From assembly GCA_000004985.1 (NCBI GenBank), contig GG738854.1: a stretch of 64,000 nt of DNA, one strand, 5' to 3'. This DNA comes from Naegleria gruberi. Taxonomy: Eukaryota. Below, piece after piece: positions 39,201-58,924 of this stretch (position 1 is its first letter; each line of letters opens with the position of its first letter). Both the position numbers and the translations under genes were made by a program. The notes under the pieces were generated by a model. That model was given only the letters and a program-made list of their open reading frames with translations. It was not told the origin of the DNA and searched no databases.

Positions 39201-42008
39201 GCAACAGAGAATAATGTGATAACAGTTAGATCACAAAGATTGGTTAATAATTATAAGGGAATGGAAAGTAGATTGAAAAGCGTGTTGATTTTGTCAACTG
39301 AGCTAGTCAATTATGAATTTTCCCAAATTGGGCTTTTTGACAAGTTACAATTGTTTTCAAATATGACTGTTGGTGAATATACAGCAAATTTGACGATTGT
39401 AGATACTGGTTACAATATTGTTGTTGGACAATCTATTGTAAAGTCACTATTTAATGTTATGACTCTCCAACAATTGAGTCAACCTGAAATTCTTTCAAAA
39501 TTAACACCTAAGGAAATTAATCAAATTACAAGAGAATTGAAAAGAATATCAAATGACCAACAAGTTGTCTCCAATATAGTTTCGAATTTCAAGGATAATG
39601 TCAATAACTATACTTTGGATGATGGTTTGGATTTGACATCTTCTTTATTAGATTTGTCAATAACTAAATTAGAATCTAAAGAAAAGATAACTATTTCAGA
39701 AACATTAACTTCTTTCACGCAGAATTTAATTGAAAGCTCGTCAAATTTCACTTCAGAACAAGTGACACCTATTGCCATCAATATTGTGTCTGTGGCTTCA
39801 AATATTCTCGACAATTCTGGCGATAATTCAGCTGGTAAATCGCAAATAATTGGAAAGTCAATCGAATCTATTGAAAAAACTATTTCTTTAATTTCAGTTG
39901 TAAACTCGACAGAAAATTTATTGATTACAACTTCAAAGATTATGGTTTTGCTAATTTCCAAGGCAGAATATAAGAATTCACACGTGATCGATAAGGATTA
40001 TTCTTTATCTCTTCCAGAACTCGATTTTGGATTTTCGTTTGGTTTAGTCAAGTATGAAAATTATTTGACAGATGACTTACAGAATACTACAGCTATTTCA
40101 GATATTCTACAAGTGAGACCATTATCAAATGGAGTATTCACACCACTCCGTAATCTTTTAACTCCATTCAACTTGACCTTCTCTATTAAGAAATACGAAA
40201 CCCCAAATAATGAAACAATCGCAACTGTTGTTTGTAAATATTGGAATGAAACAAGAAGTGAATGGTTGAAGGACGGCTGTGTAACTACAATATTATCAGA
40301 AACTCAAGTAATGTGTTCTTGCTATCACACAACCAAGTTTTCTTCATTTGTAGATTATTCGAATATTGACTTTACAACAAGAACAGCTCAATCTTCACTT
40401 GCAGTTGCTAATATTATATTTAGTTCTATATTCATTGTAATCATTATTGTAATTCTCATTCTATTAGTGGTGTTTAGAAAATCTCAACCTGTCAAATCAA
40501 GACACGTGACTCCTTACCTTGCATTGACATCCTTACTCATTGAAAACTTAGTTTCTGGAATAATTTCTAAAGGACTTTTACTTGACAAGTACAATTTCAA
40601 TATAACCATCATGACAAGCGTCTGTGCAGTCATTTCTACTGCTTTATTGACAAGCGCAGTTTGGTGTTATTTCGTCATGTCTGTTCGATTCATTATTCAT
40701 AGATATTTCTATGAATACATGATGAGAATAGTAGAAAATAGACAGCAGAAGAATAATCTATTAATCAAGATTTTGAATATTTTCAAGCAAGATAAGGTTT
40801 TGATCTTGTCAAGTGTCATGCTTGCTGTTGGATTTATTTTATATTTTGCTATTTTTGTAATTTTGAGAGGAGTTTCTGTATTTTCTGATTCACAATTTAC
40901 CTATTCAACTACTATTTCATTATTTATTTTTTTACTTTCAATGACAGCAATGATTTTTGGCATTTATATTTTAGATTTTTATTTGGATTGCACTAACAAG
41001 CAATTAAGAGATGAATTGGTTGATATTTCAGATGAAATAATGTTAGTAGAAAGTGGAGACTCCCACCTAAGCAATTTGAATTCCAGAAAATCACTCAAGA
41101 TTACAAAACCATTTATTGAGCTATTGGAACAATCTCAAGTGAAAAAGATTGTGAGCTTGTTTTATTCGAATGACAAGCTCATGTTTAGACCAGAGGCAGT
41201 TTTCTTCATGACTGGTATGCTCTTCTTTACAGTTTCGTACTGTTTAGGATTTGCAAGCGTCAATGATCGTTACTTAATCAACCCTTCAGCTGCCATAACT
41301 CAACATGTTGATGTGTTAGATGCCATATCATTCCTCTTTGACATTCTCATGACTATTTGTTTTATCATTAGTTTCGGTGGTTTCTCCGTTTGTTGGGCCA
41401 TTGTAATTGAATCCAGAAAGAAGAATTGTTTCGTTGAATCTAAACAAGTTGTTATTAAGGAACGAATTAAGTCTCAAAGATTGGAAAATCTTGCAGATAT
41501 GACCGACAAGTTTGATATTTACAAACTCATGAAAAACAAGTATTTGCTTAGATTATTCCGTCAATATTCGAAACTGGAAATGTCATTAGAAAATTATGTA
41601 ATTTGGATGAGAATTGAACATGCCAAGTCTAAATTTGCTAAATTATGGATAGAAATGGAAGGAGAACCAGAATCGATTGAGGAATGGAATTTATTGTTAC
41701 AAGAATTGGAGGAATGGTTGACAGAGCATATTTCATCAGAAGCTGAGCTATCTCTCAATGTCAGTGCTCGTTCAAAGAAGCAGTTTGTGACAGCAGTGAG
41801 AGTATTGGAAACTAAGGTTGCAAGTATTCCATCAAAGAATAGAGATTCTTTATTGAATTTGAAACAAACTGTCAGAGATGCTATTGAATCATTGACCACT
41901 GATGTTTTATATAATTTGATGGACACTTATTCAAGATTTATCATTACTAATGAATACAAAGCCATGAAGGAAGTAGAAGCAGTTACAGAAATGACAACTT
42001 TCAAATAA
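36206..42008 (+). CDS. adhesion-GPCR-like receptor (about 1919 aa): signal/anchor, about 35 tandem Dictyostelium/tenascin-type EGF repeats, spacer, GPS-like motif, seven TM helices, cytoplasmic tail. Two exons: 36206..36536 and 36580..42008, with a 43-nt intron (GTAAGT...CGTAG)
   Basis: ATG at 36206 (MVHQTESS...), followed by hydrophobic LPLITILLFIGYCWVFV. EGF unit C-x(8-12)-C-[SN]-G-x-G-x-C-x(4-5)-C-x-C-x-x-G-[FY]-x-G-x-x-C repeated about 35 times. GPS-like CKYWNETRSEWLKDGCVTTILSETQVMCSCYHTTKFSSF. Seven hydrophobic helices between about 40380 and 41400. Exon 1 ends ...CYPGYSG in phase 1 and joins to KCTTLITCNNLGVNDTQVCSGHGVC... Confidence 0.75.
36705..36838. repeat. intragenic near-identical duplication (about 134 bp, 2 mismatches) of one EGF-repeat unit; second copy at 37329..37462
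   Basis: AGATGTCAAA[C/A]CGCCATGCAATGTTATGGAATTGACTTTACCAACACGACCTATGTCTGTAACGGTAATGGTAATTGCAC[T/A]GCTGCCAACAACTGCACCTGTAAAGATGGATTTTCAGGTACCAGATGTCAAAC occurs twice, about 620 bp apart. It encodes AMQCYGIDFTNTTYVCNGNGNCTAANNCTCKDGFSGTRCQT in both copies. Confidence 0.85.
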
Positions 42009-42308
42009 CATTTTAAATAGCTGATTGTGAATAGTGATAACTAGTGTTAATATTTTATTGAATGAAAATTTCTGGTAGATTTAGTTTACAGTAACCATTG
42101 TATTACACAGATATTTACAGTTCATTGTAATTTAGGATATCCTCTTTAAATGTTTCGAATAGCTTTAATAATGACAGATGTTTTCCATCAACACAATTTT
42201 TTGTTTTTCGTAGAACACATTTATACACCAACTCGTCAAGTCACTCATTTCGAATTAGGAATTCATCATTTCCATCAGCACAACAGAAACTTAAAAACAC
42301 AAAAAAAA

Positions 42309-44342
42309 ATGCAAGATTCCATTAGCACCAGTAGCTCTGGCAGTAGTAGTAGACAATTCATCAATCCAAGCTTGTTTAAACCATACTCCGCTACACCTTC
42401 TTCTGAGCAAGGTCAACAAGACGAAACAATTTACATTTCGGATAAACCATTTCCACTATTCGAATTCGATGCTACCAAAGAGAAATGGCAGATGAATCAA
42501 GATGCCTTTGCTAAATTAGAAACTGTGAGTGGTTCTGGCTTTGTGAAAGTAATTTCTGTGGTTGGTGCCTATCGTTTAGGTAAAAGTTATTTGATGAATC
42601 AGATAATGAATGGTAAGAAAGGAGGTTTCGAATTGGGACACACCACAGAGAGTATGACTAAAGGTGTATGGGCCTGGGGTGAGGTTGTTCATGATCCACA
42701 AGTTGGCACTCATATTCTTCTCTGTTTGGATTCTGAAGGTCTTTTAGATGTCGATAGAGAGGACGAAACTTTTGACATGTCACTTTTCTGCATATTGACA
42801 ATGTTGTCAAGTTATATGATTATCAATTTGGAAAAGAGAATAAGTAGCGATGATCTTAACAAGTTGGCTTTTGCATCTGATTTTACAAATATGATTGTCA
42901 CTGATCAACAAGATGACAAGGATTACAATCATGAAGATATTCAATATTATACTCCACAATTATTATGGCTAGTAAGAGATTTTACATTGAAATTGAAAGG
43001 AACAGAGCAAGAATACTTGAATGAGATATTAAATGAAGAGGATAAAAAGAAAAAGTCAAATGTCTCTCTAATTAAGAAGAATATTAAGAAGTATTTTGGT
43101 GACAAGATGGAGCTCAAGACTTTACCATGTCCAAGCAGTGATGAAGATGTATTGACAACCATTGAAGAGAGTGGTGATCAATTATCTGAGAAATTTGTTA
43201 ATGGAATGAAATCTTTGGTCAACCACATTAGAACAACAGCTTCCCTTAAAAAGATACTTTCTCCAAAGAGTAATCGTGAAATGTATCTCGACACAATGGG
43301 ATTTTACTATTATTGTAGAAAATTAGTGGAACAATTGAATGAAAATGCCAAACAAATTCAAATTCCAAACACATTCGAATCAGTCTTGACACAACAACTT
43401 GAATCTATTCTAAACGAAACGTTGGAGAATTATGATAAGAAGATTCAAAGCTTTATTGCTAAATTCCCAATTGAGGAAGATTCCCTCTTGGATATTCATA
43501 GTGAAGTTTCCAATTTTTATATGCAGAAAGCTCTCAATAGAGTTCCACATTTCAAGAGAGAAGAATTCCATGAAACTTTGTTGATTTCCCTTGGAGAAGT
43601 TTCGTTTAAGGATAATCCAGAAGAAGTTCAATTGAATTCTAGTTCCAAACTATACAATCTTCTTGAGAGAAACAGGGACGAATCTGAAAGATATTGTGAA
43701 CAAATCTATATTAAGGAAATTAATTCTGTCAAGTCAAAGATGTACTCTGTTGTTGAACAATGCAGAAGTGATTTGGAATTTGTTAGAGCTAATCTTCTTC
43801 AACAATTGATGGGTCCAGCTGCCAACAAGTACATGACTAAATTCTTCAGTGAATCCCAAGAAATAATGAAACAAACTATTCTCTGTCAAAAGATTGATCA
43901 AGCAGAGAAGGAAAAGGAGGTTTTAAAGGAGGAGATTTATAATATGAAAGAACAAAGAAAGCAACTGGTTGAGCTCATTCAAAAAGAACGAACACAAACA
44001 AACTCTGCCATGCAACAATTGCAGAGTCAACAACAAGCTCTCGAACAGCAAATTCAATTAGAAAAACAATCAGCCTCAAGTCAGATCAGTAACTTGAAAA
44101 ATCAATTGGAAAATATACCAAAGGCCACACCAACAGTCATTTACCAAACTGTTTCAGAGCCAAGCAAAAGTACTTGTAGTAGTAGTAGAAGTAGTAGATA
44201 TTACTCTAGCTCAGATGATGATGATTATTATTCAAGAGGTAGTAGAAGAAGCAGTGGTGGTAGAAGTGGAAAAACATTTTACAAAGGTGGCCAGTTTATT
44301 CCAGGTGGTGGAAGAGCTCCAAAAGGAGGCGTTTGGATGTAA
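42309..44342 (+). CDS. guanylate-binding-protein (GBP)-like large GTPase of the dynamin superfamily, with C-terminal coiled-coil and Ser/Arg/Gly-rich tail (about 677 aa from ATG 42309)
   Basis: GBP-type G-domain VISVVGAYRLGKSYLMNQIMNGKKGGFELGHTTESMTKGVWAWGE...ILLCLDSEGLLD...LSSYMIINL. Helical/coiled-coil region (QQLQSQQQALEQQIQLEKQ). Tail SSRSSRYYSSSDDDDYYSRGSRRSSGGRSGK. The track ORF starts further upstream (42150) at a non-ATG codon. Confidence 0.7.
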   Translation: MQDSISTSSSGSSSRQFINPSLFKPYSATPSSEQGQQDETIYISDKPFPLFEFDATKEKWQMNQDAFAKLETVSGSGFVKVISVVGAYRLGKSYLMNQIMNGKKGGFELGHTTESMTKGVWAWGEVVHDPQVGTHILLCLDSEGLLDVDREDETFDMSLFCILTMLSSYMIINLEKRISSDDLNKLAFASDFTNMIVTDQQDDKDYNHEDIQYYTPQLLWLVRDFTLKLKGTEQEYLNEILNEEDKKKKSNVSLIKKNIKKYFGDKMELKTLPCPSSDEDVLTTIEESGDQLSEKFVNGMKSLVNHIRTTASLKKILSPKSNREMYLDTMGFYYYCRKLVEQLNENAKQIQIPNTFESVLTQQLESILNETLENYDKKIQSFIAKFPIEEDSLLDIHSEVSNFYMQKALNRVPHFKREEFHETLLISLGEVSFKDNPEEVQLNSSSKLYNLLERNRDESERYCEQIYIKEINSVKSKMYSVVEQCRSDLEFVRANLLQQLMGPAANKYMTKFFSESQEIMKQTILCQKIDQAEKEKEVLKEEIYNMKEQRKQLVELIQKERTQTNSAMQQLQSQQQALEQQIQLEKQSASSQISNLKNQLENIPKATPTVIYQTVSEPSKSTCSSSRSSRYYSSSDDDDYYSRGSRRSSGGRSGKTFYKGGQFIPGGGRAPKGGVWM

Positions 44343-48000: not shown

Positions 48001-48099
48001 ACGATTAAGGTTCAATTAGAGGAGAAGATTAAAGAGGAATTTTAAGAAATAACAATATTCACCACGGTGATAAAAATATATTTCAAATTTTACAAAAAA

Positions 48100-49247
48100 A
48101 TGTTTAAATTGCAAAATGTACTTTTTCTTCGGAATAATTTATTTGGATTGAAATTAGCAAGAATTAATGCACAACAACAACATCAAATGCATACAAAATG
48201 TTCTCAACAAGCTTATACATGGAAATCGGAAATATTAGCAAATGAATTTTCACTATTGACTGATGAAAAGATGAATTCTGCTCCCTTCCGATTTATTCAA
48301 CCCTTGTTGAGACACTTTTCGGAAAGAGTTAATAATATGGAGAATGTTGGAGGTTTTAAAGAACCAATACCTGTTCAATATTTAAATGATTTGAGTTGTT
48401 CAATGATGAAGAATATTCAATTTTCAACAAGCATGACTGATGATAGTGAATGGTTTAGGAAATTAAAATTTGTGGATCAGGACTTTATTATGGCCAATGT
48501 ATCGTCCGAAAAATTGGAAGAAGGGTTTTGGTATGAGAGGCATATTTGTGAAACGAGTCAAGTTCCTACTCGATTCAATAATTTGCACGATTTTTATGGG
48601 TTTCTGATATGGATGACCTTTCCAAAGACAAAGAGATTGTTCAATTTGTTGCATAATCAAAACATGTTGGAGAGGGATAATCCACATTGTAAGAAGAGAT
48701 CACCCACACAAAATTTCCTTACACTTTTTGATGAGTGTGGTGTGTTGGTGTGTATTGAGGAAAATCATTTCGAGGAGTTGAAGAGTTTGCTATACAACAT
48801 GGAATTTAAAGAACTATTTTGGAAGAGGAGAGAGGTAGTGGAGGAAAACATGCTGTTTATCAATTTTGGACATTCAATATTGGAAATGCTTACAATGAGA
48901 CCTTACATTGGATATACCACAAAGTTTACAGCCGTACCTGTTAATTCTGAAACATGTAAGTCTTTAATCGCCAACTTTTGTTCACAGAGATAGTTAGGAA
49001 TATTCACTCAAACATTACAAATAGCCCCTCAAAGGAAATTGATAACCTTGTGGAGTGTTACAAAACTTTAGATAATATTGCATTGGATTTATTTCAAAAT
49101 CAGAAAACATACGACATTGATATTCAAAACACAAAATCTTTACGCCCATTACCTGTCCTAGGAATACCTCAATGGTGGCCAAACCAAAACGAAGATTTCT
49201 ACAACAATCAACAATATTTCAGAAGGAAGCCAGAATTAAACACATAA
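48100..49247 (+). CDS. hypothetical conserved-looking protein (about 370 aa). Proposed two exons 48100..48955 and 48994..49247, joined by a 38-nt intron (GTAAGT...GATAG). C-terminal motif LPVLGIPQWWPNQNEDFYNNQQYF
   Basis: ORF 48067..48993 (first ATG at 48100) is followed in another frame by ORF 48978..49247. Splicing at ACAT|GTAAGT ... GAGATAG|TT keeps the frame (phase 1), giving ...AVPVNSETFRNIHSNITNSPSKE... The alternative reading is that the gene simply ends at the TAG at 48991. Confidence 0.35.
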
Positions 49248-49296: not shown

Positions 49297-49369
49297 GCCC
49301 CGCTAGCTCAGTCGGTAGAGCGTTGGACTTTTAATCCAACGGTCGTGGGTTCGAGCCCCACGTGGGGCG
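49297..49369 (+). tRNA. tRNA-Lys (anticodon UUU), 73 nt, second copy
   Basis: GCCCCGCUAGCUCAGUCGGUAGAGCGUUGGACUUUUAAUCCAACGGUCGUGGGUUCGAGCCCCACGUGGGGCG. Canonical cloverleaf followed by a T10 run (pol III terminator). Shares 5' flank AATGAGCA and 3' flank GTTG[TC]AATTTT with the copy at 6770..6842. Confidence 0.9.
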
Positions 49370-50949: not shown

Positions 50950-53061
50950 TTACAAATCGTCAACTCCATTCACTATAACTGCTTCTTTCTTGTGGAGGTC
51001 ATAGATATGCTTCCACTCTGTGTATTGTTTAGTTCTCCTCAATCTAGAGAATGTATCATAAATGTTCAGAGCAAGCTCTGGTAGTAAAATATTGAGAATA
51101 TCTTGTCTATTGAGAATGTACTCATCTGGTAAATTCTGTTGATCCATTTCAATACAGAATTGAAGATAGGCCTTCCTAGATCTAGCACTTATGTTGACCT
51201 CAAATTTGGCATAACTTTTGATGAAGGTGTGGAATATATCTTTCATTCCAGCAACTGATACCTGTTTAGAATAGTCAGCAATCATTAGTTTTTCAAAAAG
51301 GAGGTAATTTTCATAGGAGCTTTCATTAATAGAGTACTCTTTGAAAAGCTCTCTTACATCCTTATTCGCAACTAAAATCCTTTCAATAGCCGTAATATCT
51401 TTCGATTCTGTACTGTTGTGCTTTGAATTGGAACCTCTTCTCCTTACGAAACCTCTTATTGAATAATAAATCTCAATAATCATTGCATTACCACCATAGA
51501 AGAAGAACATTACGAGCGCAATCGCTATTCTCACTGCCAAATTTACTGAAGTAGCCGATGATGAATTATTTGGTGTAATAATAATGAAAATAACCAGCAA
51601 GATCACAATGGCTAAGAAAACCATGAGGTCAATTCTGATATAAGCTGGATCATCAAAGAGTAAAAACTTTGCCAATCCTCCCTCCTTAATATTCTTCCTA
51701 TTGATTATCATATCAATTGCAATGCACAATAGAGCAAAGAAACATCCAATCAGAGTAATAATGAAAATATACAAGGTGAATGAAATGAATATCTTGTAAG
51801 GATCCAATACAATGATAATTACAATTGGTATCAGCAAAATCACAGCAAATATCACTGAAAATAAGAGAACCAACACAACTCCAACTGTACTCGATGCAAG
51901 TCTCCTCAGCACCTGAGTATATCTTCCATTCAGTTTCCTGATGAGAACATATAAATTTCTCAAATAAATCCATCTCACAATACTGAGAGCATACACCAAA
52001 CACATTATATTGAACACAAACAATGATGCCAATGAGCTAGCAGTCGCACAATTCACTCTAAACGGAGCTGTCCACAAATTGGTATAGAGAAATGCACAAG
52101 CTGGACATAAATACGGAATCAACAATCTTCTCTTCAGTGAAGGTCTCTTAAACATTCCAAATAGAAAGAAAACCACGTAAAATGAAACATAAACAAAGAA
52201 CATGGTATAATTGGAGAAATCTAGTGGAGTAAAATCGGAATAACTCATACATGCACTTGTGGAACAGTCAGAACAGGTTGCATTCCACAGGATCATTTCA
52301 GATTGATGACTTTGTATGAATTCTGAAATATTCCTTTCGTATAATAATACTTGATTGACAATATTCCAATCAGGTGTTAATCGAATAGATCGAATTCTTT
52401 CAATTTTAGAAATATCCTCTGTTGAGAAATTCAGAAAATTTCTTCCTCTATCCAAAACTATCATGTCATGTAAATTCGAAACTTTACAATCATTCGAATA
52501 TAAAATCAAATTCGTCCTCGTATCCACCTCCTTCTTTAAAATTGAAACTTTCTGATCTAATCCCCCAGAATCAACAATTAACTGCGAAGGAAATATTGGA
52601 AACATTACAAAATCCGAAATTTCATAACCCTCCTTTCGAATACTTTTCTTGGGCGAAATATAACGATTCCTTCTCACTGCAAATGTAAAAACACTAGAAG
52701 GTGCCAAAATTCCATCATAATTATCAAAGAAATGTCCAATAAAACAATCCGAATAGAAATAATCAACTTGTACAAGTGACATTTTGAAACTGGACGAAAC
52801 TTCATTCCAAATCTGAGAACAAGGTTGCGAATTTTGACAAGCTATTCGAAGGTTTGTGTGATTTGCAATTCTATCATTTAGAATAAACAAGGAGAATGTA
52901 TCAAATGCTCCAATAATTTTAGAATTATTTAAAAGATTCGAATAGAATATTGTACTGTTTTCTTGGCCGAAAGTAAAATATTTCATCAACACAGTGATTG
53001 TGATAATCGTCAGAAATGCGTCAAATTTGATGGGCCTAGTCGGTATTAGTATTAGATTCAT
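50950..53061 (-). CDS. 7TM-RGS protein: signal peptide, about 290-aa Cys/N-glyco-rich ectodomain, seven TM helices, C-terminal RGS domain (about 703 aa from ATG 53061)
   Basis: Seven hydrophobic helices (MFFVYVSFYVVFFLFGMF ... AVRIAIALVMFFFYGGNAMIIEIY). C-terminal RGS box ...DVRELFKEYSINESSYENYLLFEKLMIADY...IFHTFIKSYAKFEVNISARSRKAY..., which matches the RGS consensus (F-x-x-F-L-x-x-E-F-S-x-E-N-L-x-F-W ... E-V-N-[IL]-D-x-x-T-R). The track start at 53094 is TTG; the first ATG is at 53061 (MNLILIPT...). Confidence 0.65.
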   Translation of the reverse strand: MNLILIPTRPIKFDAFLTIITITVLMKYFTFGQENSTIFYSNLLNNSKIIGAFDTFSLFILNDRIANHTNLRIACQNSQPCSQIWNEVSSSFKMSLVQVDYFYSDCFIGHFFDNYDGILAPSSVFTFAVRRNRYISPKKSIRKEGYEISDFVMFPIFPSQLIVDSGGLDQKVSILKKEVDTRTNLILYSNDCKVSNLHDMIVLDRGRNFLNFSTEDISKIERIRSIRLTPDWNIVNQVLLYERNISEFIQSHQSEMILWNATCSDCSTSACMSYSDFTPLDFSNYTMFFVYVSFYVVFFLFGMFKRPSLKRRLLIPYLCPACAFLYTNLWTAPFRVNCATASSLASLFVFNIMCLVYALSIVRWIYLRNLYVLIRKLNGRYTQVLRRLASSTVGVVLVLLFSVIFAVILLIPIVIIIVLDPYKIFISFTLYIFIITLIGCFFALLCIAIDMIINRKNIKEGGLAKFLLFDDPAYIRIDLMVFLAIVILLVIFIIITPNNSSSATSVNLAVRIAIALVMFFFYGGNAMIIEIYYSIRGFVRRRGSNSKHNSTESKDITAIERILVANKDVRELFKEYSINESSYENYLLFEKLMIADYSKQVSVAGMKDIFHTFIKSYAKFEVNISARSRKAYLQFCIEMDQQNLPDEYILNRQDILNILLPELALNIYDTFSRLRRTKQYTEWKHIYDLHKKEAVIVNGVDDL

Positions 53062-53801
53062 TTTTTTTTTCTGTTGAAATCTGTCAGTGCTCAAGATTAG
53101 TGAAATCTCCTTTTGACATTTTGACGACAGGATAGTAAAAGGAAGCGAATTAACGATTGTGCTTTTTCAAGAAAGAATCTGGATAAGCAAGTTAGTCTGT
53201 AATAGAGAACATGTTTACAATACATATTCATTATTCGAAACTTGTTGTAAACTAAATATGTTTTTCTCAAACACAAATGTAACATTAAGGTTTCTAAACA
53301 AGATCACAAAGGAAATTCGAAGGCTAAATTCCCCTGTCTTTCGAATAAAAATATGCGGTTTGGTTGACCACTTCACATTTAGTAATTTTTCTGAGCTACA
53401 TATTTGGAAATTTTATTGCATATTCGAAATATTGGTTCGGCTTTTCAATTTTTAAAAAAACTTCTTTTGAAAAAAACTGTCGCAAACTTGCAACTGAAAT
53501 TCGTCCAGTTTCGAATTGGACTTTTTTTACACATTTTGAAAACAAACTAATCTTAGTTTGTAGAACTTATTCGCATTTAGAAACTAGTTCCAGAAGTTGA
53601 TAAAAAGAAGTCAACCACATCGTATCTGTGATATTCGAAACCTGTCAATTCAATTAGCAATACAAAAAAAAAATCTAATTAGTCCACCATCAACGACAAT
53701 TGACACTTCATCATCTGGATAACCCAACATACTAATATTATTACTTTATACAAATTTTGTTACTACTCCATCCAAGTTTCGAATAACGTTTTTCAAAAAG
53801 A

Positions 53802-56531
53802 ATGGGTTTCTTCTCCAATTTATTTCATCATCACAATAAGAATGATCCTAAACACCAATCCGTTTCCGTTTCTTCCACTGCTCCTTCACTAACCTCTCCA
53901 CACACAATAGACGAAACCTCCCATGCCGACCAAGCTCTCGATCAATCCTTTCGTTCAACTGTCAGTTCAACTCACATCAATTCCAATACCTCATCCAGTC
54001 GTTTATCCATCGACTCAATGGCTTCCTCCTTCTCCAATGCCACACAATACAACTCAACTCATAAACATTCAATGAGTAATCCATTTCATTTCCTTCACAC
54101 TCACACTTCACATCATAATCCACAGAGAATGAGTGTTCGTGATTTTGCTCGACAATATTTGGAAGTTTTGGAGAGTGAAAAGAGGAGAGAATTGTTGAAG
54201 AGTGTTTCAATGATACAGACAAACTATTCGAATGGTGGTTGTGTGAGTGCGAATCAGTCGTTGCATGCAATTGTTGGTGGTGCTGCTGCTGCTACAGTAG
54301 TGGGTGATAATGTGAATTCGAATAATGAGAATTTGGTGAGTGAGGAGGCAACTGTTTCGAATGGAATTGCAGAGGTGAATACAGAGTCAACGACACTGGT
54401 GACAGCTGTTGATAATTCAAACACTTCCAATGAGGATGTTGCAGTTAGTAATGAAAATAATCGTCTCAGTATTGAAAATTCACAACTTATCAGAAATATC
54501 AAGAAACAACATGTAAATAATGAGGAGAAACAAACTTTTAAAAAGTTTATTATTGAAAATGAAAAGTATATTCAAACACTCGATGAAATTTATCAAGTTT
54601 GCATTTATGGACAAGTTGAAAGATTGAAGGAACTTGTCTCTGCACATAGTGAAAAATCCGGAAGAAAATTTTCACTCACAATGGCAAGTTTGAGAATGAC
54701 TGGTTCTGTAATTGATATGAGTGGTGATGCAGAACATAAGAATGTAAAGAAACAATCGTGGAGTCATTGTACTCTGGTTCACTTGGCTGCACGTTTCAAT
54801 CAGGTCGATGTTTTAGACATGCTCTTGAAAGAATTTACCAATGAAGATAATCTTTCAGATGTGCTGAATTGTGAGGATGATATTCATGCAACTCCATTGT
54901 TCCATGCTGTGACTGCTGGAGCCATTGAGGCAACTACATTTTTATGCAGTTTCACTCAACAAATCAAAATTAATGTAAAGGACATGTTTGAATGCAGTCC
55001 ACTTTGGTATGCTCTCAATAGAAAAGACTTTGAAATGGCCAATATTTTATTGACATTTGGTGCTGACATGTTCTTTAAAATTCATGGTGGAGAATCCTAT
55101 CTCCATAGAGCTTGTGACAATAATGATATTGCCATGGTTAAGTATATTCTTCTAGGTATTGGAGTGGACGATGAGATTGATTTGACCAATCAAAAGACTT
55201 TACAAATATTCGAGGAGAGACAGAACTTATTTTTGAGAAGTGATCAAAGACATCAAACACCTCTCTTCAATTCTATCAAATCCTATCAGGATAATATGAA
55301 GAAACGTAAATCTGATACTCTTCCATCTCCAAATGAAGCTCCAAATCCACAAAAGGAACAAGTGATGGACTTTTTATTAAGCTTTTTCAATGAACATGCC
55401 CCAGTGTTATTGCAGAAAGCTTTAGATCAAACGAATCACTATGGACACAATGTATTCCACTTCTGCGCTGAGCAAGATGCATTCCAGCAATTGCTCAAAT
55501 TAATCAAATATTTTGAAACTGATGAAAAGCTCAAGTTTGCCCTAAATCTCAAAGACAAAATTCTAGGTAACACCCCACTCCATATTTCTATAATGACAAG
55601 TCATTATGATATTTTTAAACTATTTATTAATTGTAGTGAAGTTGAGTTGAATATTCCAAACCAACAACTAGATTTACCACTCCATGTAGCCCTAAGACAA
55701 CACAAGTTGAGAATGTGTCAATATCTCTATATTCACTATAGTCAACAAGATTTAGAAGTTAAGAATGCTCAAAGATACTCCTCACTGAAATTGGCCAAGA
55801 GATTGGACATTAACATGAAAAAGCTTGCAGAGGGTTCAACAGAAGAATTTGAAAAGAAGAAGATCGTCAAGAACACTTCTGAAAAGAAATGGTGGCACAT
55901 TTTCAAGATTCACAAGCAAAACAATCAACAAGATTCCAGAAAGAGCATGGTTGAAAAGGGCCATACAACACCTCTCGAAGAAATTTCTCAAAATGAAAGC
56001 GAGTTCACCTCATCAACTGATGCCTCTTCCTCTGATTTATCGGCTCAAAGAACAACCTTCCCTCTGGTTATTTGGACTAAGGAGCTGACATTGGGAGTTG
56101 ATATTATTGACACTCAACACCATGCCCTTGTTGACATTATCAACAAGTTGATCAAATTATTGTTTGGAGAAGATAATGCTTTTATTCCTGACAGATCAGC
56201 AGATGAATGGATTCTGGGTTATATAATTGGCAATCTACTCGAATACACTGAATTCCATTTTGAAACCGAGGAGAAAATTATGTCCAAATATCAGAAAATA
56301 CTTCCAGATGGTTATTTAGATGAACATCATCAAGAACATGTCGAATTCACATCGAAAATTCACAAATTGCATCAAGAATACCTTGAAAGTCACTCCACTC
56401 TATCCTTCCTCAATGTGGATTTGTTGAATTATTTACTGAACTGGCTAGTTACTCACATCATGGGAAGTGATCATATTTTGGTTTCTCATCTTAACAAGGG
56501 TATGAAGGAGGGCCAAAAAATCGAATTGTAA
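53802..56531 (+). CDS. ankyrin-repeat protein with C-terminal hemerythrin-like (HHE cation-binding) domain (909 aa); N-terminal Ser/Thr/His-rich low-complexity region
   Basis: ANK repeats (…TLVHLAARFNQVDVLDMLL…, …TPLFHAVTAGAIEATTFLC…, …SPLWYALNRKDFEMANILLTFGAD…, …YLHRACDNNDIAMVKYIL…, …TPLHISIMTSHYDIFKLFI…). C-terminal FPLVIWTKELTLGVDIIDTQHHALVDIINKL ... ILGYIIGNLLEYTEFHFETEEKIMSKYQ ... YLDEHHQEHVEFTSKIHKL. This matches the bacteriohemerythrin pattern W-x-x-x-[LF]-x-[VL]-G-x-x-x-[IL]-D-x-[EQ]-H-x-x-L ... Y-x-x-x-H-F-x-x-E-E ... H-x-x-E-H. Confidence 0.65.
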   Translation: MGFFSNLFHHHNKNDPKHQSVSVSSTAPSLTSPHTIDETSHADQALDQSFRSTVSSTHINSNTSSSRLSIDSMASSFSNATQYNSTHKHSMSNPFHFLHTHTSHHNPQRMSVRDFARQYLEVLESEKRRELLKSVSMIQTNYSNGGCVSANQSLHAIVGGAAAATVVGDNVNSNNENLVSEEATVSNGIAEVNTESTTLVTAVDNSNTSNEDVAVSNENNRLSIENSQLIRNIKKQHVNNEEKQTFKKFIIENEKYIQTLDEIYQVCIYGQVERLKELVSAHSEKSGRKFSLTMASLRMTGSVIDMSGDAEHKNVKKQSWSHCTLVHLAARFNQVDVLDMLLKEFTNEDNLSDVLNCEDDIHATPLFHAVTAGAIEATTFLCSFTQQIKINVKDMFECSPLWYALNRKDFEMANILLTFGADMFFKIHGGESYLHRACDNNDIAMVKYILLGIGVDDEIDLTNQKTLQIFEERQNLFLRSDQRHQTPLFNSIKSYQDNMKKRKSDTLPSPNEAPNPQKEQVMDFLLSFFNEHAPVLLQKALDQTNHYGHNVFHFCAEQDAFQQLLKLIKYFETDEKLKFALNLKDKILGNTPLHISIMTSHYDIFKLFINCSEVELNIPNQQLDLPLHVALRQHKLRMCQYLYIHYSQQDLEVKNAQRYSSLKLAKRLDINMKKLAEGSTEEFEKKKIVKNTSEKKWWHIFKIHKQNNQQDSRKSMVEKGHTTPLEEISQNESEFTSSTDASSSDLSAQRTTFPLVIWTKELTLGVDIIDTQHHALVDIINKLIKLLFGEDNAFIPDRSADEWILGYIIGNLLEYTEFHFETEEKIMSKYQKILPDGYLDEHHQEHVEFTSKIHKLHQEYLESHSTLSFLNVDLLNYLLNWLVTHIMGSDHILVSHLNKGMKEGQKIEL

Positions 56532-56634: not shown

Positions 56635-57567
56635 TTAATCCTTCTTTGATTTCTTTCCAGACTCTGTTTGTTTGGCATCCTTCTTTTCCTTCTTTTGTTT
56701 TGGTTCTGTAGTGGAAGGTGAAGCTGGCTTAGCAACTGGTTTTTTAGATGGAGTAGACCACCAAGCACTGACAGCATCAGCAGCGTCCAAAATAAGTGGG
56801 AATGTAACAAACACTACCATAATGATATAAACTGAATTATAAGCAATGAGATATAAAACAGTAGATTTGGCTCCCTCATCTCCAACAACACTTTCCAAAT
56901 AATAATAACTCAAAGCATAGAAAACAGAGCAAACAAATGGCATTTTCAATCTCCAAGATGGATTTGCCAAAAAGGTACTAATTCCATAATCTGCCTTTTT
57001 AAGAACCAAATGAGCTTCAATAACATTCATTATTAAACTTCCACCAACAGCACTAAGATAACCCAAAAGGGCAGGGAAAAAGATGGTAGAAGAATGATTT
57101 TCACTTCTAGCCAACTTTAAAAAGAACAAAGTGCTAGCACACAATGCACAAGCACGTCTAAATTCGTTTGGCAAAGTCAAAACATATTTGAGAATTGGAT
57201 GAGCGAACCAGGAAGAGAAGCTTTCCTTTGCTCCCTTTGAACGGAAGAGAATATAGGAACAGACAGACCATACCCCCAATCCACACCACAACCTAAAATC
57301 ATTAAAGATGAAAGGAGCTGGTTTTCCGACGAGAATTCTAGAAATAGTTCCACCTCCTTCTCCCATCACAATAATATATACCATAGCCATGACGATATTC
57401 ATCTTGGTTGAATCATATCCAGCAGCAGCATAATATCTCTTAATGATGAGCAAGTGCTTGAGAACATACAATACCTGAAACAAGGTAATTGCGATCCAAA
57501 CATTTTCGAACAATCGGAACGAGTTGAGATCAAACTCTTGTATGAGAGAAAGAACAACTTTGGACAT
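56635..57567 (-). CDS. polytopic membrane protein, TRIC (TMEM38)-type intracellular cation channel-like (310 aa) with Lys-rich C-terminal tail
   Basis: About 7 hydrophobic helices. Two glycine-rich intramembrane motifs (IVMGEGGGTISRILVG and LSAVGGSLIMNVIEAH), as in TRIC TM2/TM5 kinks. Polybasic C-terminus PKQKKEKKDAKQTESGKKSKKD. ATG at 57567. Confidence 0.45.
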   Translation of the reverse strand: MSKVVLSLIQEFDLNSFRLFENVWIAITLFQVLYVLKHLLIIKRYYAAAGYDSTKMNIVMAMVYIIVMGEGGGTISRILVGKPAPFIFNDFRLWCGLGVWSVCSYILFRSKGAKESFSSWFAHPILKYVLTLPNEFRRACALCASTLFFLKLARSENHSSTIFFPALLGYLSAVGGSLIMNVIEAHLVLKKADYGISTFLANPSWRLKMPFVCSVFYALSYYYLESVVGDEGAKSTVLYLIAYNSVYIIMVVFVTFPLILDAADAVSAWWSTPSKKPVAKPASPSTTEPKQKKEKKDAKQTESGKKSKKD

Positions 57568-58438: not shown

Positions 58439-58924
58439 ATGCCACACAGCTTCGGTTATAGAGCCAGAACCAGACACACCTTCGCCAGAGGTTTCAGAGC
58501 CCACGGTATTCTCTCATCAAAGTTCTTCTTGACCAACTTCAAGCTTGGTGATTTCGTTACCGTCAAGGTTAACAGTAACGAACACAAGGGTATGCCACAC
58601 AGAATTTACCACGGTAAGACTGGTAGAGTCTGGAACGTTACCCCAAGAGCTGTTGGTGTTGAAATCACTAAGCAAGTCAGAGGTAGAATCATCAACAAGA
58701 GATTCCACGTCAGAATTGAACACGTCGTGAAGAGCAAGTGTAGACAAGACTTCTTGGAAAGATGTAAGCTTAACAACAAGATTGCTCTTGAAAATAAGGA
58801 TAAGCCAGTTGAACAAAGAAAGAAGTTCGTCAAGAGACTCCCAGCTCAACCAAGACCATCTTTCACTTTGAAGGTTGAAAATGTTGTTGATGTCATTCCA
58901 CCAGAATTCGTTGAAACTGCTTAA
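58439..58924 (+). CDS. rpl21: 60S ribosomal protein L21e (161 aa)
   Basis: MPHSFGYRARTRHTFARGFRAHG...GDFVTVKVNSNEHKGMPHRIYHGKTGRVWNVTPRAVGVEITKQVRGRIINKRFHVRIEHV... matches the eukaryotic L21e family throughout. Probable 47-nt 5'-UTR intron at 58384..58430 (GTGAGT...TATCAG). Confidence 0.9.
   Translation: MPHSFGYRARTRHTFARGFRAHGILSSKFFLTNFKLGDFVTVKVNSNEHKGMPHRIYHGKTGRVWNVTPRAVGVEITKQVRGRIINKRFHVRIEHVVKSKCRQDFLERCKLNNKIALENKDKPVEQRKKFVKRLPAQPRPSFTLKVENVVDVIPPEFVETA

What the first reader, a model, noticed from the sequence alone, without database searches (positions are those of the whole stretch)
53802..56531. Ankyrin-repeat protein carrying a bacteriohemerythrin-like HHE domain
The C-terminal about 150 aa show the His/Glu ligand pattern of hemerythrin-like di-iron domains (W..LGV..ID.QH..L ... 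Y.EFHF..EE ... H..EH). They are fused to at least five ankyrin repeats. Hemerythrin domains are rare in eukaryotes; the best-known case is the iron/oxygen-sensing F-box protein FBXL5. An ankyrin-hemerythrin combination suggests an O2-, NO- or iron-responsive scaffold. The window is also rich in F-box genes, which may be coincidence.
Basis: partly seen in the sequence, partly recalled or inferred. Interest (0 to 1): 0.65.

Follow-up and report, generated by a model that had tools for sequence, protein, structure and literature searches.

The report
Ankyrin-hemerythrin fusion protein of Naegleria
This Naegleria gruberi gene encodes a 909-residue protein that joins about eight ankyrin protein-binding repeats to an intact bacterial-type di-iron hemerythrin domain; the combination is conserved in related amoebae, including the brain-eating N. 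fowleri, has not been studied, and probably links oxygen/redox (or iron/NO) sensing to protein-protein interactions.

Summary
Window 53802..56531 (+) is one uninterrupted 909-codon ORF, identical to Naegleria gruberi XP_002680248.1 / D2V6U1 ("predicted protein"). Pfam finds ankyrin repeats (E 4e-24) and Hemerythrin PF01814 (E 3.6e-12, aa 765-895). NCBIfam TIGR02481 scores 81 bits, above its cutoff. All seven di-iron ligands are present in the canonical H-HxxxE-HxxxH-HxxxxD spacing: H773, H819, E823, H842, H846, H885, D890. They align on the ligands of DcrH-Hr and Methylococcus bacteriohemerythrin. They are conserved in every relative found, except one contig that breaks off at an assembly gap.

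An AlphaFold2 model of the domain (pLDDT 90) is a four-helix bundle closest to DcrH-Hr (TM 0.84). FBXL5 is far (TM 0.47). The fusion is a small family in Heterolobosea: orthologues in N. lovaniensis, N. fowleri and Willaertia magna, plus a shorter paralogue subfamily. No prokaryotic or viral Ank+Hr match was found, and no paper describes it.

Best reading: a eukaryotic counterpart of the bacterial hemerythrin-domain O2/redox sensors whose output is an ankyrin scaffold rather than an enzyme. That function is inferred, not shown. It is a new variant of a known kind, of moderate interest. The nearby F-box gene is coincidental.

The parts
53802..56531 (+). Complete single-exon CDS (909 aa + stop) of the ankyrin-hemerythrin protein, N. 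gruberi NAEGRDRAFT_47128
   Evidence: ORF list. It is 100% identical to XP_002680248.1/D2V6U1. The start is supported by the conserved MGFFS N-terminus in orthologues.
53802..54536 (+). N-terminal region aa 1-245: Ser/Asn/Thr/His-rich, poorly conserved, predicted disordered apart from two predicted helices (aa 112-141 and from aa 216 into the ankyrin region)
   Evidence: Composition S 17%, N 12%. Only 27-38% identity to orthologues, against 54-69% (Ank) and 59-72% (Hr). AF2 pLDDT is about 21-45. Strain variant P0007 differs from the window protein by indels only in this region.
54084..54122 (+). His-rich tract FHFLHTHTSHHNP (aa 95-107)
   Evidence: The same position holds a run of 10 His in N. 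lovaniensis/N. fowleri and HHNHSHHHHQKH in Willaertia. Its function is unknown; metal binding is a guess.
54126..54203 (+). Conserved helix R[VM]S[IV]RDFAxQYLE... (aa 109-134)
   Evidence: Conserved in all long orthologues and recognisable in paralogues P0018/P0030. Predicted helix 112-141.
54537..55841 (+). Ankyrin-repeat solenoid, aa 246-680: N-cap, about eight repeats (starting near aa 320, 361, 396, 429, 482, 546, 588, 622; the fifth is split by an insertion) and a C-cap
   Evidence: Pfam Ank_2 4.1e-24, Ank 2.1e-18, Ank_3 6.3e-16, Ank_4, Ank_5. Helix pairs in the AF2 model. Repeat register read from the sequence. 54-69% identity to orthologues.
55842..56057 (+). Linker aa 681-752, Ser/Lys/Glu-rich, poorly conserved, predicted mostly disordered
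   Evidence: Composition. 28-45% identity to orthologues. pLDDT below 50.
55884..55916 (+). Conserved basic-aromatic motif KKWWHIFKIHK (aa 695-705) inside the linker
   Evidence: K696 W697 W698 I700 F701 K702 H704 K705 are invariant among Naegleria orthologues. Paralogues have FWSSLFG at this position, and F701 is invariant across the family.
56058..56528 (+). C-terminal hemerythrin domain aa 753-909: N-terminal loop FPLVIWTKELTLGVDIID followed by four helices (aa 767-788, 798-829, 838-863, 868-900)
   Evidence: PF01814 and TIGR02481. PDB sequence hits. AF2 model pLDDT 89.9, pTM 0.84. Foldseek best match is DcrH-Hr, TM 0.84 normalised to the target.
56118..56120 (+). Codon of ligand H773 (aligns with His22 of McHr / His23 of DcrH by my count in the printed alignment)
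   Evidence: invariant in the family.
56256..56270 (+). HxxxE: ligands H819 and E823 (bridging carboxylate)
   Evidence: invariant.
56325..56339 (+). HxxxH: ligands H842 and H846
   Evidence: invariant.
56442..56471 (+). WLVTHIMGSD: ligands H885 and D890 (HxxxxD), with L882 and I886 next to the O2 site
   Evidence: Aligns with WLVNHIMKED of DcrH and WLVNHIPKVD of McHr. Conserved in all full-length family members. It is also present, in another reading frame after an NN gap, in the contig of P0004.
56166..56210 (+). Family-specific insertion GEDNAFIPDRSADEW (aa 789-803) in the loop between helices A and B
   Evidence: Absent from McHr and DcrH in the alignments. Conserved in the long subfamily and shorter in the paralogues. 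Lower pLDDT, about 70.

Best explanation
The gene encodes a cytosolic multidomain protein. A C-terminal, fully liganded DcrH/bacteriohemerythrin-type di-iron domain is tethered by a roughly 70-residue flexible linker to an eight-repeat ankyrin solenoid. A disordered His/Ser/Asn-rich N-terminal region comes first.

Shown here: the architecture, the intact ligand set, the four-helix fold, and conservation of the whole arrangement in at least two genera and two paralogue lineages of Heterolobosea.

Inferred: the di-iron site binds O2 (possibly also NO) and switches between diferrous and diferric states. As proposed for DcrH, this redox/ligand change would alter the N-terminal loop of the hemerythrin domain, which here leads directly into the linker. 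That in turn would change what the ankyrin groove binds, or whether the hemerythrin domain or linker motif occupies it. On this reading the protein is an O2/redox-responsive scaffold: a eukaryotic, non-enzymatic-output counterpart of the bacterial hemerythrin-domain sensors. The partner and the physiological output are unknown.
For: - Single ORF identical to the deposited N. gruberi protein.
- Ank and Hemerythrin families both above curated cutoffs.
- Seven ligands H773/H819/E823/H842/H846/H885/D890 in the H-HxxxE-HxxxH-HxxxxD spacing that defines O2-binding hemerythrins and the bacterial sensors (PMC9388753). They align on the DcrH and McHr ligands.
- The ligands are invariant in all eight family members wherever sequence is available. 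They are invariant or at least 90% conserved in a 71-sequence alignment.
- AF2 domain model has pLDDT 89.9. Its best structural match is the sensor domain DcrH-Hr (TM 0.84), ahead of McHr (0.70) and invertebrate Hr (0.68).
- A profile of the alignment ranks DcrH 4e-33 > McHr 5e-29 > myohemerythrin 1.5e-16, and FBXL5 is not hit. That profile is mostly bacterial sequences, but the window domain alone gives the same order.
- The nearest non-family relatives in 1.84 billion representatives are signalling proteins: MCP-Hr and HAMP-GAF-PAS-Hr x2-3.
- The Hr domain is C-terminal to its partner module, as in DcrH.
- The Ank and Hr domains are conserved (54-72% identity) while the N-terminal region and linker drift (27-45%).
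- The fusion is collinear in N. lovaniensis, N. fowleri, Willaertia magna and a paralogue subfamily. The Hr domains of all of them form one clade in an NJ tree of 207 Hr domains.
Against: - No experiment exists. Iron binding, O2/NO binding and any signalling are all untested.
- The ankyrin domain is not a catalytic output, so 'sensor' cannot be read from the architecture as it can for MCP or GGDEF fusions.
- The long, poorly conserved linker argues against tight allosteric coupling. It fits a 'tethered hemerythrin' (local O2/NO buffering or delivery) equally well.
- The full-length AF2 model is poor (pLDDT 43) and gives no evidence of an Ank-Hr contact.
- Substrate-tunnel size and autoxidation rate, which distinguish the sensors from the carriers (PMC9388753), could not be assessed.
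- A possible orthologue in N. fowleri iron-deficiency proteomes ('methyl-accepting chemotaxis sensory transducer' NF0030540) did not respond to iron (fold change -1.19, p 0.11). The identity of that entry could not be verified.
Confidence: 0.5

Rival explanations
1. Tethered hemerythrin. The di-iron domain works as the single-domain Naegleria/bacterial hemerythrins do: O2 storage or delivery, or NO/ROS scavenging. The ankyrin repeats merely localise it to a particular enzyme, organelle surface or cytoskeletal site. No signal is transduced.
For: - The canonical O2-binding ligand set and pocket residues L882/I886 are the same as in carrier-type McHr and DcrH.
- N. fowleri single-domain hemerythrin binds O2 and consumes about 3 NO per protein (PMC11964265).
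- The long flexible linker suits a tether better than an allosteric relay.
Against: - By per-domain score, the closest hits outside the family include single-domain hemerythrins (P0027, 82 bits) as well as domains of signalling proteins. The signalling proteins lead only on whole-protein score. Relatedness therefore favours neither reading clearly.
- Naegleria already has several abundant single-domain hemerythrins for bulk buffering.
- A stoichiometric scavenger fixed on a 900-residue scaffold would have little capacity.
Confidence: 0.25
2. Iron sensor by conditional stability, working like FBXL5 or plant BTS/HRZ. With iron the hemerythrin domain folds and the protein is stable. Without iron the domain unfolds and the protein is degraded, or its ankyrin domain is unmasked. 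Protein abundance or activity would thus report cellular iron.
For:
- A conserved His-rich tract (aa 95-107; 10xHis in orthologues) could add metal binding.
- In N. fowleri the single-domain hemerythrin is the most iron-responsive protein, and an 'ankyrin repeat protein' NF0002550 falls 5.5-fold in iron deficiency. Its identity is unverified.
Against: - The domain is not of the FBXL5 type: no sequence hit, TM 0.39-0.47.
- There is no F-box, RING or other ubiquitin-system domain.
- The candidate orthologue NF0030540 is unchanged in iron deficiency (unverified).
- The canonical five-His O2-binding site suggests a gas/redox function.
Confidence: 0.15
3. Artefact: a mis-joined gene model or bacterial contamination, i.e. 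an ankyrin gene and a bacterial hemerythrin gene that are not really one protein.
For: The hemerythrin domain's nearest non-family relatives have prokaryote-type architectures or lie in prokaryotic genomes.
Against: - One uninterrupted ORF in raw genomic DNA, with G+C like its surroundings, on a 665-kb eukaryotic contig.
- The same collinear fusion occurs in N. lovaniensis, N. fowleri, W. magna, a second N. gruberi strain (P0007) and environmental contigs.
- RPL21e lies downstream in both N. gruberi and N. lovaniensis.
- No prokaryotic genome matched the ankyrin part.
Confidence: 0.02

Closest known systems
DcrH of Desulfovibrio vulgaris (MCP with a C-terminal hemerythrin domain; PDB 2avk/2awc/3waq) and the other bacterial hemerythrin-domain O2/redox sensors (Bhr-DGC, Bhr-HD-GYP)
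   Same: [quoted passage not shown]
- Same N-terminal loop motif (W..L..G...ID.QH).
- WLV.HIM..D identical around the last two ligands.
- Best sequence and structure match.
- The hemerythrin domain is C-terminal to the partner module, as in DcrH.
- Fusion within a single polypeptide.
   Different: - The host is a eukaryote.
- The partner module is an ankyrin scaffold, not a chemoreceptor or a c-di-GMP enzyme, so there is no readable catalytic output.
- A 15-residue insertion in the A-B loop (aa 789-803).
- A roughly 70-residue disordered linker and a 245-residue disordered N-terminus.
- Only 22-25% sequence identity to DcrH-Hr/McHr in the structural alignments.
- Tunnel size, autoxidation and redox-dependent output are untested.
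Single-domain bacteriohemerythrin (Methylococcus capsulatus McHr, PDB 4xpx) and Naegleria single-domain hemerythrins (Nfa1 and paralogues)
   Same: Same fold and di-iron site. The Naegleria single-domain proteins are shown to bind O2 and NO (PMC11964265).
   Different: - Those are roughly 120-135-residue stand-alone proteins.
- The window domain scores poorly on the invertebrate-type model TIGR00058 (16.8 bits) but 81 bits on TIGR02481. Published phylogenies place the Naegleria single-domain hemerythrins with the metazoan ones (PMC2556348). This suggests the window domain belongs to a different sub-lineage. No Nfa1-type sequence was compared directly here.
- NCBIfam bact_hemeryth NF033749 scores 77.4 bits, below its cutoff of 84.
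FBXL5 (mammalian iron/O2-sensing F-box protein) and plant BTS/HRZ hemerythrin E3 ligases
   Same: Eukaryotic multidomain proteins in which a hemerythrin-like domain is joined to protein-interaction repeats. They offer a conceptual model of a metal/O2-dependent switch.
   Different: - FBXL5's domain is a divergent hemerythrin-like fold with a different ligand set. There is no sequence hit, and TM is 0.39-0.47.
- The window protein has no F-box, LRR, RING or zinc-finger domain.
- The domain order is reversed (Hr is N-terminal in FBXL5).

Membership tests
Hemerythrin / HHE cation-binding domain (Pfam PF01814; NCBIfam TIGR02481) | Profile match above the curated cutoff | tested here: met
   PF01814: 47.3 bits against 25.3, E 3.6e-12, positions 2-125 of 127. 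TIGR02481: 81.4 bits against 51.75.
O2-binding hemerythrin (canonical di-iron site) | Signature H-HxxxE-HxxxH-HxxxxD with five His, one Glu and one Asp at homologous positions (PMC9388753; PMC4919030) | tested here: met
   H773; H819xxxE823; H842xxxH846; H885xxxxD890. They align on the ligands of 4xpx and 2avk and are conserved in all family members.
O2-binding hemerythrin (canonical di-iron site) | [quoted passage not shown] | tested here: met
   AF2 model pLDDT 89.9: helices 767-788, 798-829, 838-863, 868-900. TM (normalised to the target) is 0.84 to DcrH-Hr, 0.70 to McHr and 0.68 to P. gouldii Hr. This is a prediction, not a solved structure.
O2-binding hemerythrin (canonical di-iron site) | Binds two iron atoms and reversibly binds O2 | not testable with these tools
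   Needs recombinant protein: iron analysis, UV-vis bands at 330/380/500 nm, EPR.
NCBIfam 'bacteriohemerythrin' (NF033749 subfamily_domain; PRK00808 equivalog) | Score above the curated cutoff | tested here: not met
   NF033749: 77.4 bits against a cutoff of 84. PRK00808: 59.3 against 109. The domain is bacteriohemerythrin-like but is not a member by NCBI's thresholds.
Invertebrate-type hemerythrin (TIGR00058) | Score above the curated cutoff | tested here: not met
   16.8 bits against a cutoff of 131.85.
Hemerythrin-domain O2/redox sensors (criteria of Kitanishi 2022, PMC9388753) | 1) conserved iron ligand residues | tested here: met
Hemerythrin-domain O2/redox sensors (criteria of Kitanishi 2022, PMC9388753) | 2) fusion with an N- or C-terminal functional domain in one polypeptide | tested here: met
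   The ankyrin solenoid lies N-terminal to Hr in a single ORF. However, the partner is a binding module, not a catalytic or signalling domain, and the family as defined is bacterial.
Hemerythrin-domain O2/redox sensors (criteria of Kitanishi 2022, PMC9388753) | 3) enlarged substrate tunnel | not tested
   Model coordinates could not be analysed with the tools. The only observation is that the residues flanking the last ligands (WLV.HIM) are identical to those of DcrH.
Hemerythrin-domain O2/redox sensors (criteria of Kitanishi 2022, PMC9388753) | 4) rapid autoxidation; 5) O2- or redox-dependent output | not testable with these tools
   These are biochemical properties.
FBXL5-type hemerythrin-like iron sensor | Homology to the FBXL5 Hr-like domain and linkage to an F-box/LRR ubiquitin-ligase module | tested here: not met
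   No FBXL5 chain at E<=1 with the single sequence or the profile. Foldseek TM 0.39-0.47, E>0.4. No F-box or LRR in Pfam.
Ankyrin-repeat proteins (Pfam clan Ank) | Tandem 33-residue helix-turn-helix repeats matching the Ank profiles | tested here: met
   Ank_2 85.4 bits, Ank 65.8, Ank_3 57.1, Ank_4 43.6, Ank_5 38.9, all above their cutoffs. About eight repeats.

The most novel reading that the evidence does not exclude
The Ank-Hr proteins are a heterolobosean invention: a eukaryotic O2/redox (or NO) sensing pathway built from a bacterial-type chemoreceptor sensor domain. The domain's origin by transfer from bacteria is not shown here. The di-iron state would gate an ankyrin scaffold that controls a cytoskeletal or membrane partner. 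This would give amoebae such as Naegleria, including N. fowleri in host tissue, a direct protein-level means to steer behaviour such as motility, encystment, amoeba-flagellate switching or metabolic mode along oxygen/NO gradients. It would be an amoeboid analogue of DcrH-mediated aerotaxis.
Probability: 0.12. Interest if true: 0.8.

Novelty: new variant of a known kind. Interest (0 to 1): 0.42.

Why it matters
Hemerythrin-domain sensors have so far been characterised only in bacteria (MCP, GGDEF, HD-GYP and P-type ATPase fusions). In eukaryotes the known examples are the divergent FBXL5/BTS ubiquitin ligases.

A canonical, DcrH-like di-iron domain fused to an ankyrin scaffold, conserved across Naegleria and Willaertia in two paralogue lineages, would be a different way of wiring O2/redox/NO perception into eukaryotic protein networks. 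Naegleria moves between oxic water, hypoxic sediments and, for N. fowleri, NO-producing host tissue. Its single-domain hemerythrins are already implicated in iron economy, oxidative stress and virulence.

The protein is small enough in its parts to test directly: recombinant domain spectroscopy, and pull-downs with the ankyrin domain. If the function turns out to be simple tethered buffering, the finding is a modest addition to the catalogue of hemerythrin architectures.

Tried and rejected
- Full-length AF2 with a 5-sequence alignment gave pLDDT 43. It is unusable for interdomain contacts or for a fold search of the ankyrin part.
- The search for homologous proteins with the 163-aa Hr domain alone returned a single hit and not even the self protein, an index limitation. 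The exhaustive representative search was used instead.
- A profile search with the C-terminal family alignment added no new named family members, only generic ankyrin proteins and small hemerythrins.
- The look-up of encoding contigs found no record for the window protein itself.
- No paper mentions the accessions or the locus tag. No paper links ankyrin and hemerythrin in one protein. Malych 2022 and Alvarez-Carreno 2018 are not held. The held supplement of PMC4919030 does not list the architecture.
- Viral contigs: no relative.
- Prokaryotic genomes: only Hr-part matches, so no donor and no bacterial Ank-Hr was identified.
- N-myristoylation of the conserved MGFFS N-terminus was considered and rejected, because F3 violates the PROSITE PS00008 pattern (own knowledge of the pattern).
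- Operon-style reading of the neighbours was rejected. The flanking ORFs (714-aa and 310-aa membrane-like proteins with no Pfam hit; RPL21e, GBP-like GTPase, DUF3025) are functionally unrelated, and the neighbours differ in N. lovaniensis apart from RPL21e.
- No tRNA or Rfam family overlaps the locus.
- NCBIfam hits to Legionella AnkX/AnkY/AnkH are generic ankyrin-repeat similarity far below cutoff.
- The weak 4HB_MCP_1 and MazG-like Pfam hits are below cutoff and were ignored.


Full report
**What is there.** The window has 30-36% G+C throughout. At 53802..56531 on the + strand it carries one uninterrupted ORF of 909 codons. The translation is identical over its full length to Naegleria gruberi EFC47504.1 / XP_002680248.1 / UniProt D2V6U1 (NAEGRDRAFT_47128), named only 'predicted protein', on a 665-kb contig. 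A 910-residue variant, P0007, probably from another N. gruberi strain, differs by a few substitutions and by indels confined to the N-terminal region. The window is therefore N. gruberi nuclear DNA, and the deposited gene model equals the raw ORF, with no intron needed.

**Domain content.** Pfam reports five ankyrin-repeat families above cutoff (Ank_2 E 4.1e-24) and Hemerythrin PF01814 at aa 765-895 (E 3.6e-12, 47 bits against a cutoff of 25, nearly full profile length).
- NCBIfam TIGR02481 'hemerythrin domain' scores 81 bits (cutoff 52).
- The stricter 'bacteriohemerythrin' models fall just short (NF033749, 77 against 84).
- The invertebrate-type model TIGR00058 is far below cutoff (17 against 132).
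- The hits to Legionella AnkX/Y/H models are generic ankyrin similarity.

From sequence, conservation and the secondary structure of an AF2 model, I divide the protein as follows:
- aa 1-245: disordered Ser/Asn/Thr/His-rich region.
- aa 246-680: ankyrin solenoid, with an N-cap, about eight repeats and a C-cap.
- aa 681-752: Ser/Lys/Glu-rich linker.
- aa 753-909: hemerythrin domain.

**The metal site.** phmmer against PDB sequences finds Methylococcus bacteriohemerythrin (4xpx, E 6e-5) and the hemerythrin domain of the Desulfovibrio chemoreceptor DcrH (2avk, E 6.5e-5). Myohemerythrin is marginal. In those alignments, H773, H819, E823, H842, H846, H885 and D890 fall on the seven ligand positions. 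Their spacing is H-(45)-HxxxE-(18)-HxxxH-(38)-HxxxxD. This is the signature that defines O2-binding hemerythrins and the bacterial hemerythrin sensors (PMC9388753; PMC4919030). The stretch around the last two ligands, WLVTHIMGSD, is nearly identical to DcrH's WLVNHIMKED.

**Structure.** A full-length AF2 run on five sequences was poor (pLDDT 43). The domain alone (aa 745-909), with a 71-sequence alignment, gave pLDDT 89.9 and pTM 0.84. It shows four long helices and an N-terminal loop. The Foldseek results against the PDB, with TM normalised to the target, were:
- DcrH-Hr: 0.84
- McHr: 0.70
- Phascolopsis hemerythrin: 0.68
- FBXL5: 0.39-0.47, at non-significant E-values

A profile of the alignment gives the same order by sequence and does not hit FBXL5 at all. 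That profile is dominated by bacterial sequences, but the single-sequence search agrees. So the domain is of the DcrH/bacteriohemerythrin kind, and FBXL5 is not a close comparator.

**Relatives.** Orthologues with the same architecture exist in several species:
- N. lovaniensis: C9374_008111, 1021 aa, 55% identity.
- N. fowleri: 1009 aa, 54% identity.
- Willaertia magna: KAL9641939.1, 928 aa.
- A metagenomic contig (P0004). Its apparent truncation is an NN gap, and the last helix with its H and D ligands is present in another reading frame.

The exhaustive HMMER search of 1.84 billion representatives with the Hr domain found 7966 hits at E<=1e-3. Among the best 150, six carry ankyrin repeats: the window protein itself, the Willaertia orthologue P0009, the fragment P0004, and three shorter proteins. 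The three shorter ones are N. lovaniensis XP_044541561.1 (439 aa, probably a truncated gene model) and the unnamed P0018 (673 aa) and P0030 (691 aa, on a 2.3-kb contig that looks like a transcript). These three align collinearly with the window protein from the ankyrin region to the C-terminus and keep all seven ligands.

In a rough NJ tree of 207 Hr domains, the Ank-linked domains plus one 176-residue protein that shares the family's loop insertion form a single clade. This is consistent with one fusion event followed by duplication.

Conservation is concentrated in the two folded modules: Ank 54-69% and Hr 59-72% identity, against 27-45% in the N-terminal region and linker. RPL21e lies downstream of the gene in both N. 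gruberi and N. lovaniensis, which supports orthology. The other neighbours differ and have no evident functional link.

**Outside the family.** The highest whole-protein scores outside the family belong to proteins with two or three hemerythrin domains and prokaryote-type signalling architectures: MCP-Hr, HAMP-GAF-PAS-Hr x2-3, and tandem Hr. Per domain, single-domain hemerythrins score just as well. One named hit is a Sideroxyarcus bacteriohemerythrin.

A scan of one genome per prokaryotic species found 53 loci in many phyla at 24-37% identity. All of them match only the Hr part of the query. The viral collection held nothing. I therefore found no prokaryotic or viral Ank-Hr and no obvious donor. 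The scan was seeded with a single peptide pattern, so absence is not proven.

**Literature.** No held paper names this protein or an ankyrin-hemerythrin fusion. Surveys report five single-domain hemerythrins in N. gruberi (PMC2556348). [quoted passage not shown] Automatic annotation already flags the domains: UniRef names the N. lovaniensis proteins 'Hemerythrin-like domain-containing protein', and the collection's precomputed Pfam list gives PF01814 plus the Ank families. The architecture is thus catalogued but has not been studied.

**How it most likely works.**
- Shown: architecture, ligand set, fold and conservation.
- From established knowledge: DcrH-Hr binds O2 tightly, autoxidises in minutes and orders or disorders its N-terminal loop with redox state. 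[quoted passage not shown] N. fowleri single-domain hemerythrin binds O2 and NO (PMC9388753; PMC11964265).
- Inferred: in the Ank-Hr protein the di-iron state is relayed through the conserved N-terminal loop (aa 753-770) and the linker, which carries an invariant KKWWHIFKxHK motif. The relay reaches the ankyrin groove and gates a protein-protein interaction.

I give the sensor-scaffold reading about 0.5. A passive 'tethered hemerythrin' gets about 0.25; the long flexible linker is its best argument. An FBXL5-like iron-dependent stability switch gets about 0.15. An artefact is effectively excluded.

**Verdict.** This is a new variant of a known kind, a hemerythrin sensor-type domain with an ankyrin scaffold as partner, so far seen only in heterolobosean amoebae. 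Interest is moderate. The architecture is conserved, it occurs in a lethal pathogen's genus and it is directly testable. Against that, hemerythrin fusions are numerous, the domains are already auto-annotated, and no functional evidence exists.

Noticed in passing
window 53234-53783 (intergenic region upstream of the gene): There are seven copies of the palindromic hexamer TTCGAA within about 550 bp: at 53234, 53316, 53340, 53423, 53510, 53634 and 53778. Base composition predicts about 0.2-0.25 for this stretch. The whole window has 45 against about 22 expected, with further clusters at 17.7-19.6 kb and 41.1-43.4 kb. The cluster is not conserved upstream of the N. lovaniensis orthologue. It could be a promoter element or a repeat remnant; this is unexplained.
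   Followed up: partly
window 54084-54203 (aa 95-134): A His-rich tract sits here: FHFLHTHTSHHNP in N. gruberi, a run of 10 His in N. lovaniensis/N. fowleri, and HHNHSHHHHQKH in Willaertia. It is followed at once by a conserved helix R[VM]S[IV]RDFAxQYLE that is recognisable even in the short paralogues. It might be a metal-binding or regulatory element.
   Followed up: no
window 55884-55916 (aa 695-705): The basic-aromatic motif KKWWHIFKIHK is invariant in an otherwise poorly conserved linker (FWSSLFG in the paralogues). It is a candidate intramolecular ligand of the ankyrin groove, or a membrane- or partner-binding helix.
   Followed up: no
window 53802-53834: The N-terminus MGFFSNLFH is conserved (MGLLSFLH in Willaertia). 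It has Gly2 but does not fit the PROSITE N-myristoylation pattern.
   Followed up: partly
window 58439-58924 (+) and L001 22157-22636: The ribosomal protein L21e gene lies downstream of the Ank-Hr gene in both N. gruberi (1.9 kb away) and N. lovaniensis (9 kb away). The other neighbours differ. In N. lovaniensis they include an RdRP gene upstream and a WD40 protein with a weak 2OG-Fe(II) oxygenase hit downstream.
   Followed up: partly
window 49297-49369 (+): tRNA-Lys(UUU) gene.
   Followed up: no
window 36720-42008, 42150-44342, 48067-48993, 32073-33812: Other genes in the window: a 1762-aa protein with many teneurin-like EGF repeats plus weak MFS and RGS hits; a guanylate-binding-protein-like GTPase; a DUF3025 protein; and an ORF with an F-box-like hit just below the Pfam cutoff (23.3 against 24.3 bits).
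   Followed up: no
window 50950-53094 (-) and 56635-57567 (-): The two ORFs flanking the gene (714 aa and 310 aa) look like multi-pass membrane proteins from their hydrophobic stretches, but they have no Pfam family at E<=0.01.
   Followed up: partly
supplements of PMC7326272 (N. fowleri proteomes): One N. fowleri gene, NF0030540, is annotated 'methyl-accepting chemotaxis sensory transducer'. A eukaryotic protein most plausibly gets that name through similarity to bacterial MCP-hemerythrin proteins, so it may be the Ank-Hr orthologue or its paralogue. It is unchanged in iron deficiency (fold change -1.19, p 0.11). An 'ankyrin repeat protein', NF0002550, drops 5.5-fold. The identities could not be checked.
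   Followed up: partly
L003 (JGI 3300002220 contig, 2470-2620): The environmental orthologue P0004 looks truncated only because of an NN gap and frame shift in the contig. The last helix, with its His and Asp ligands, follows in another frame.
   Followed up: yes
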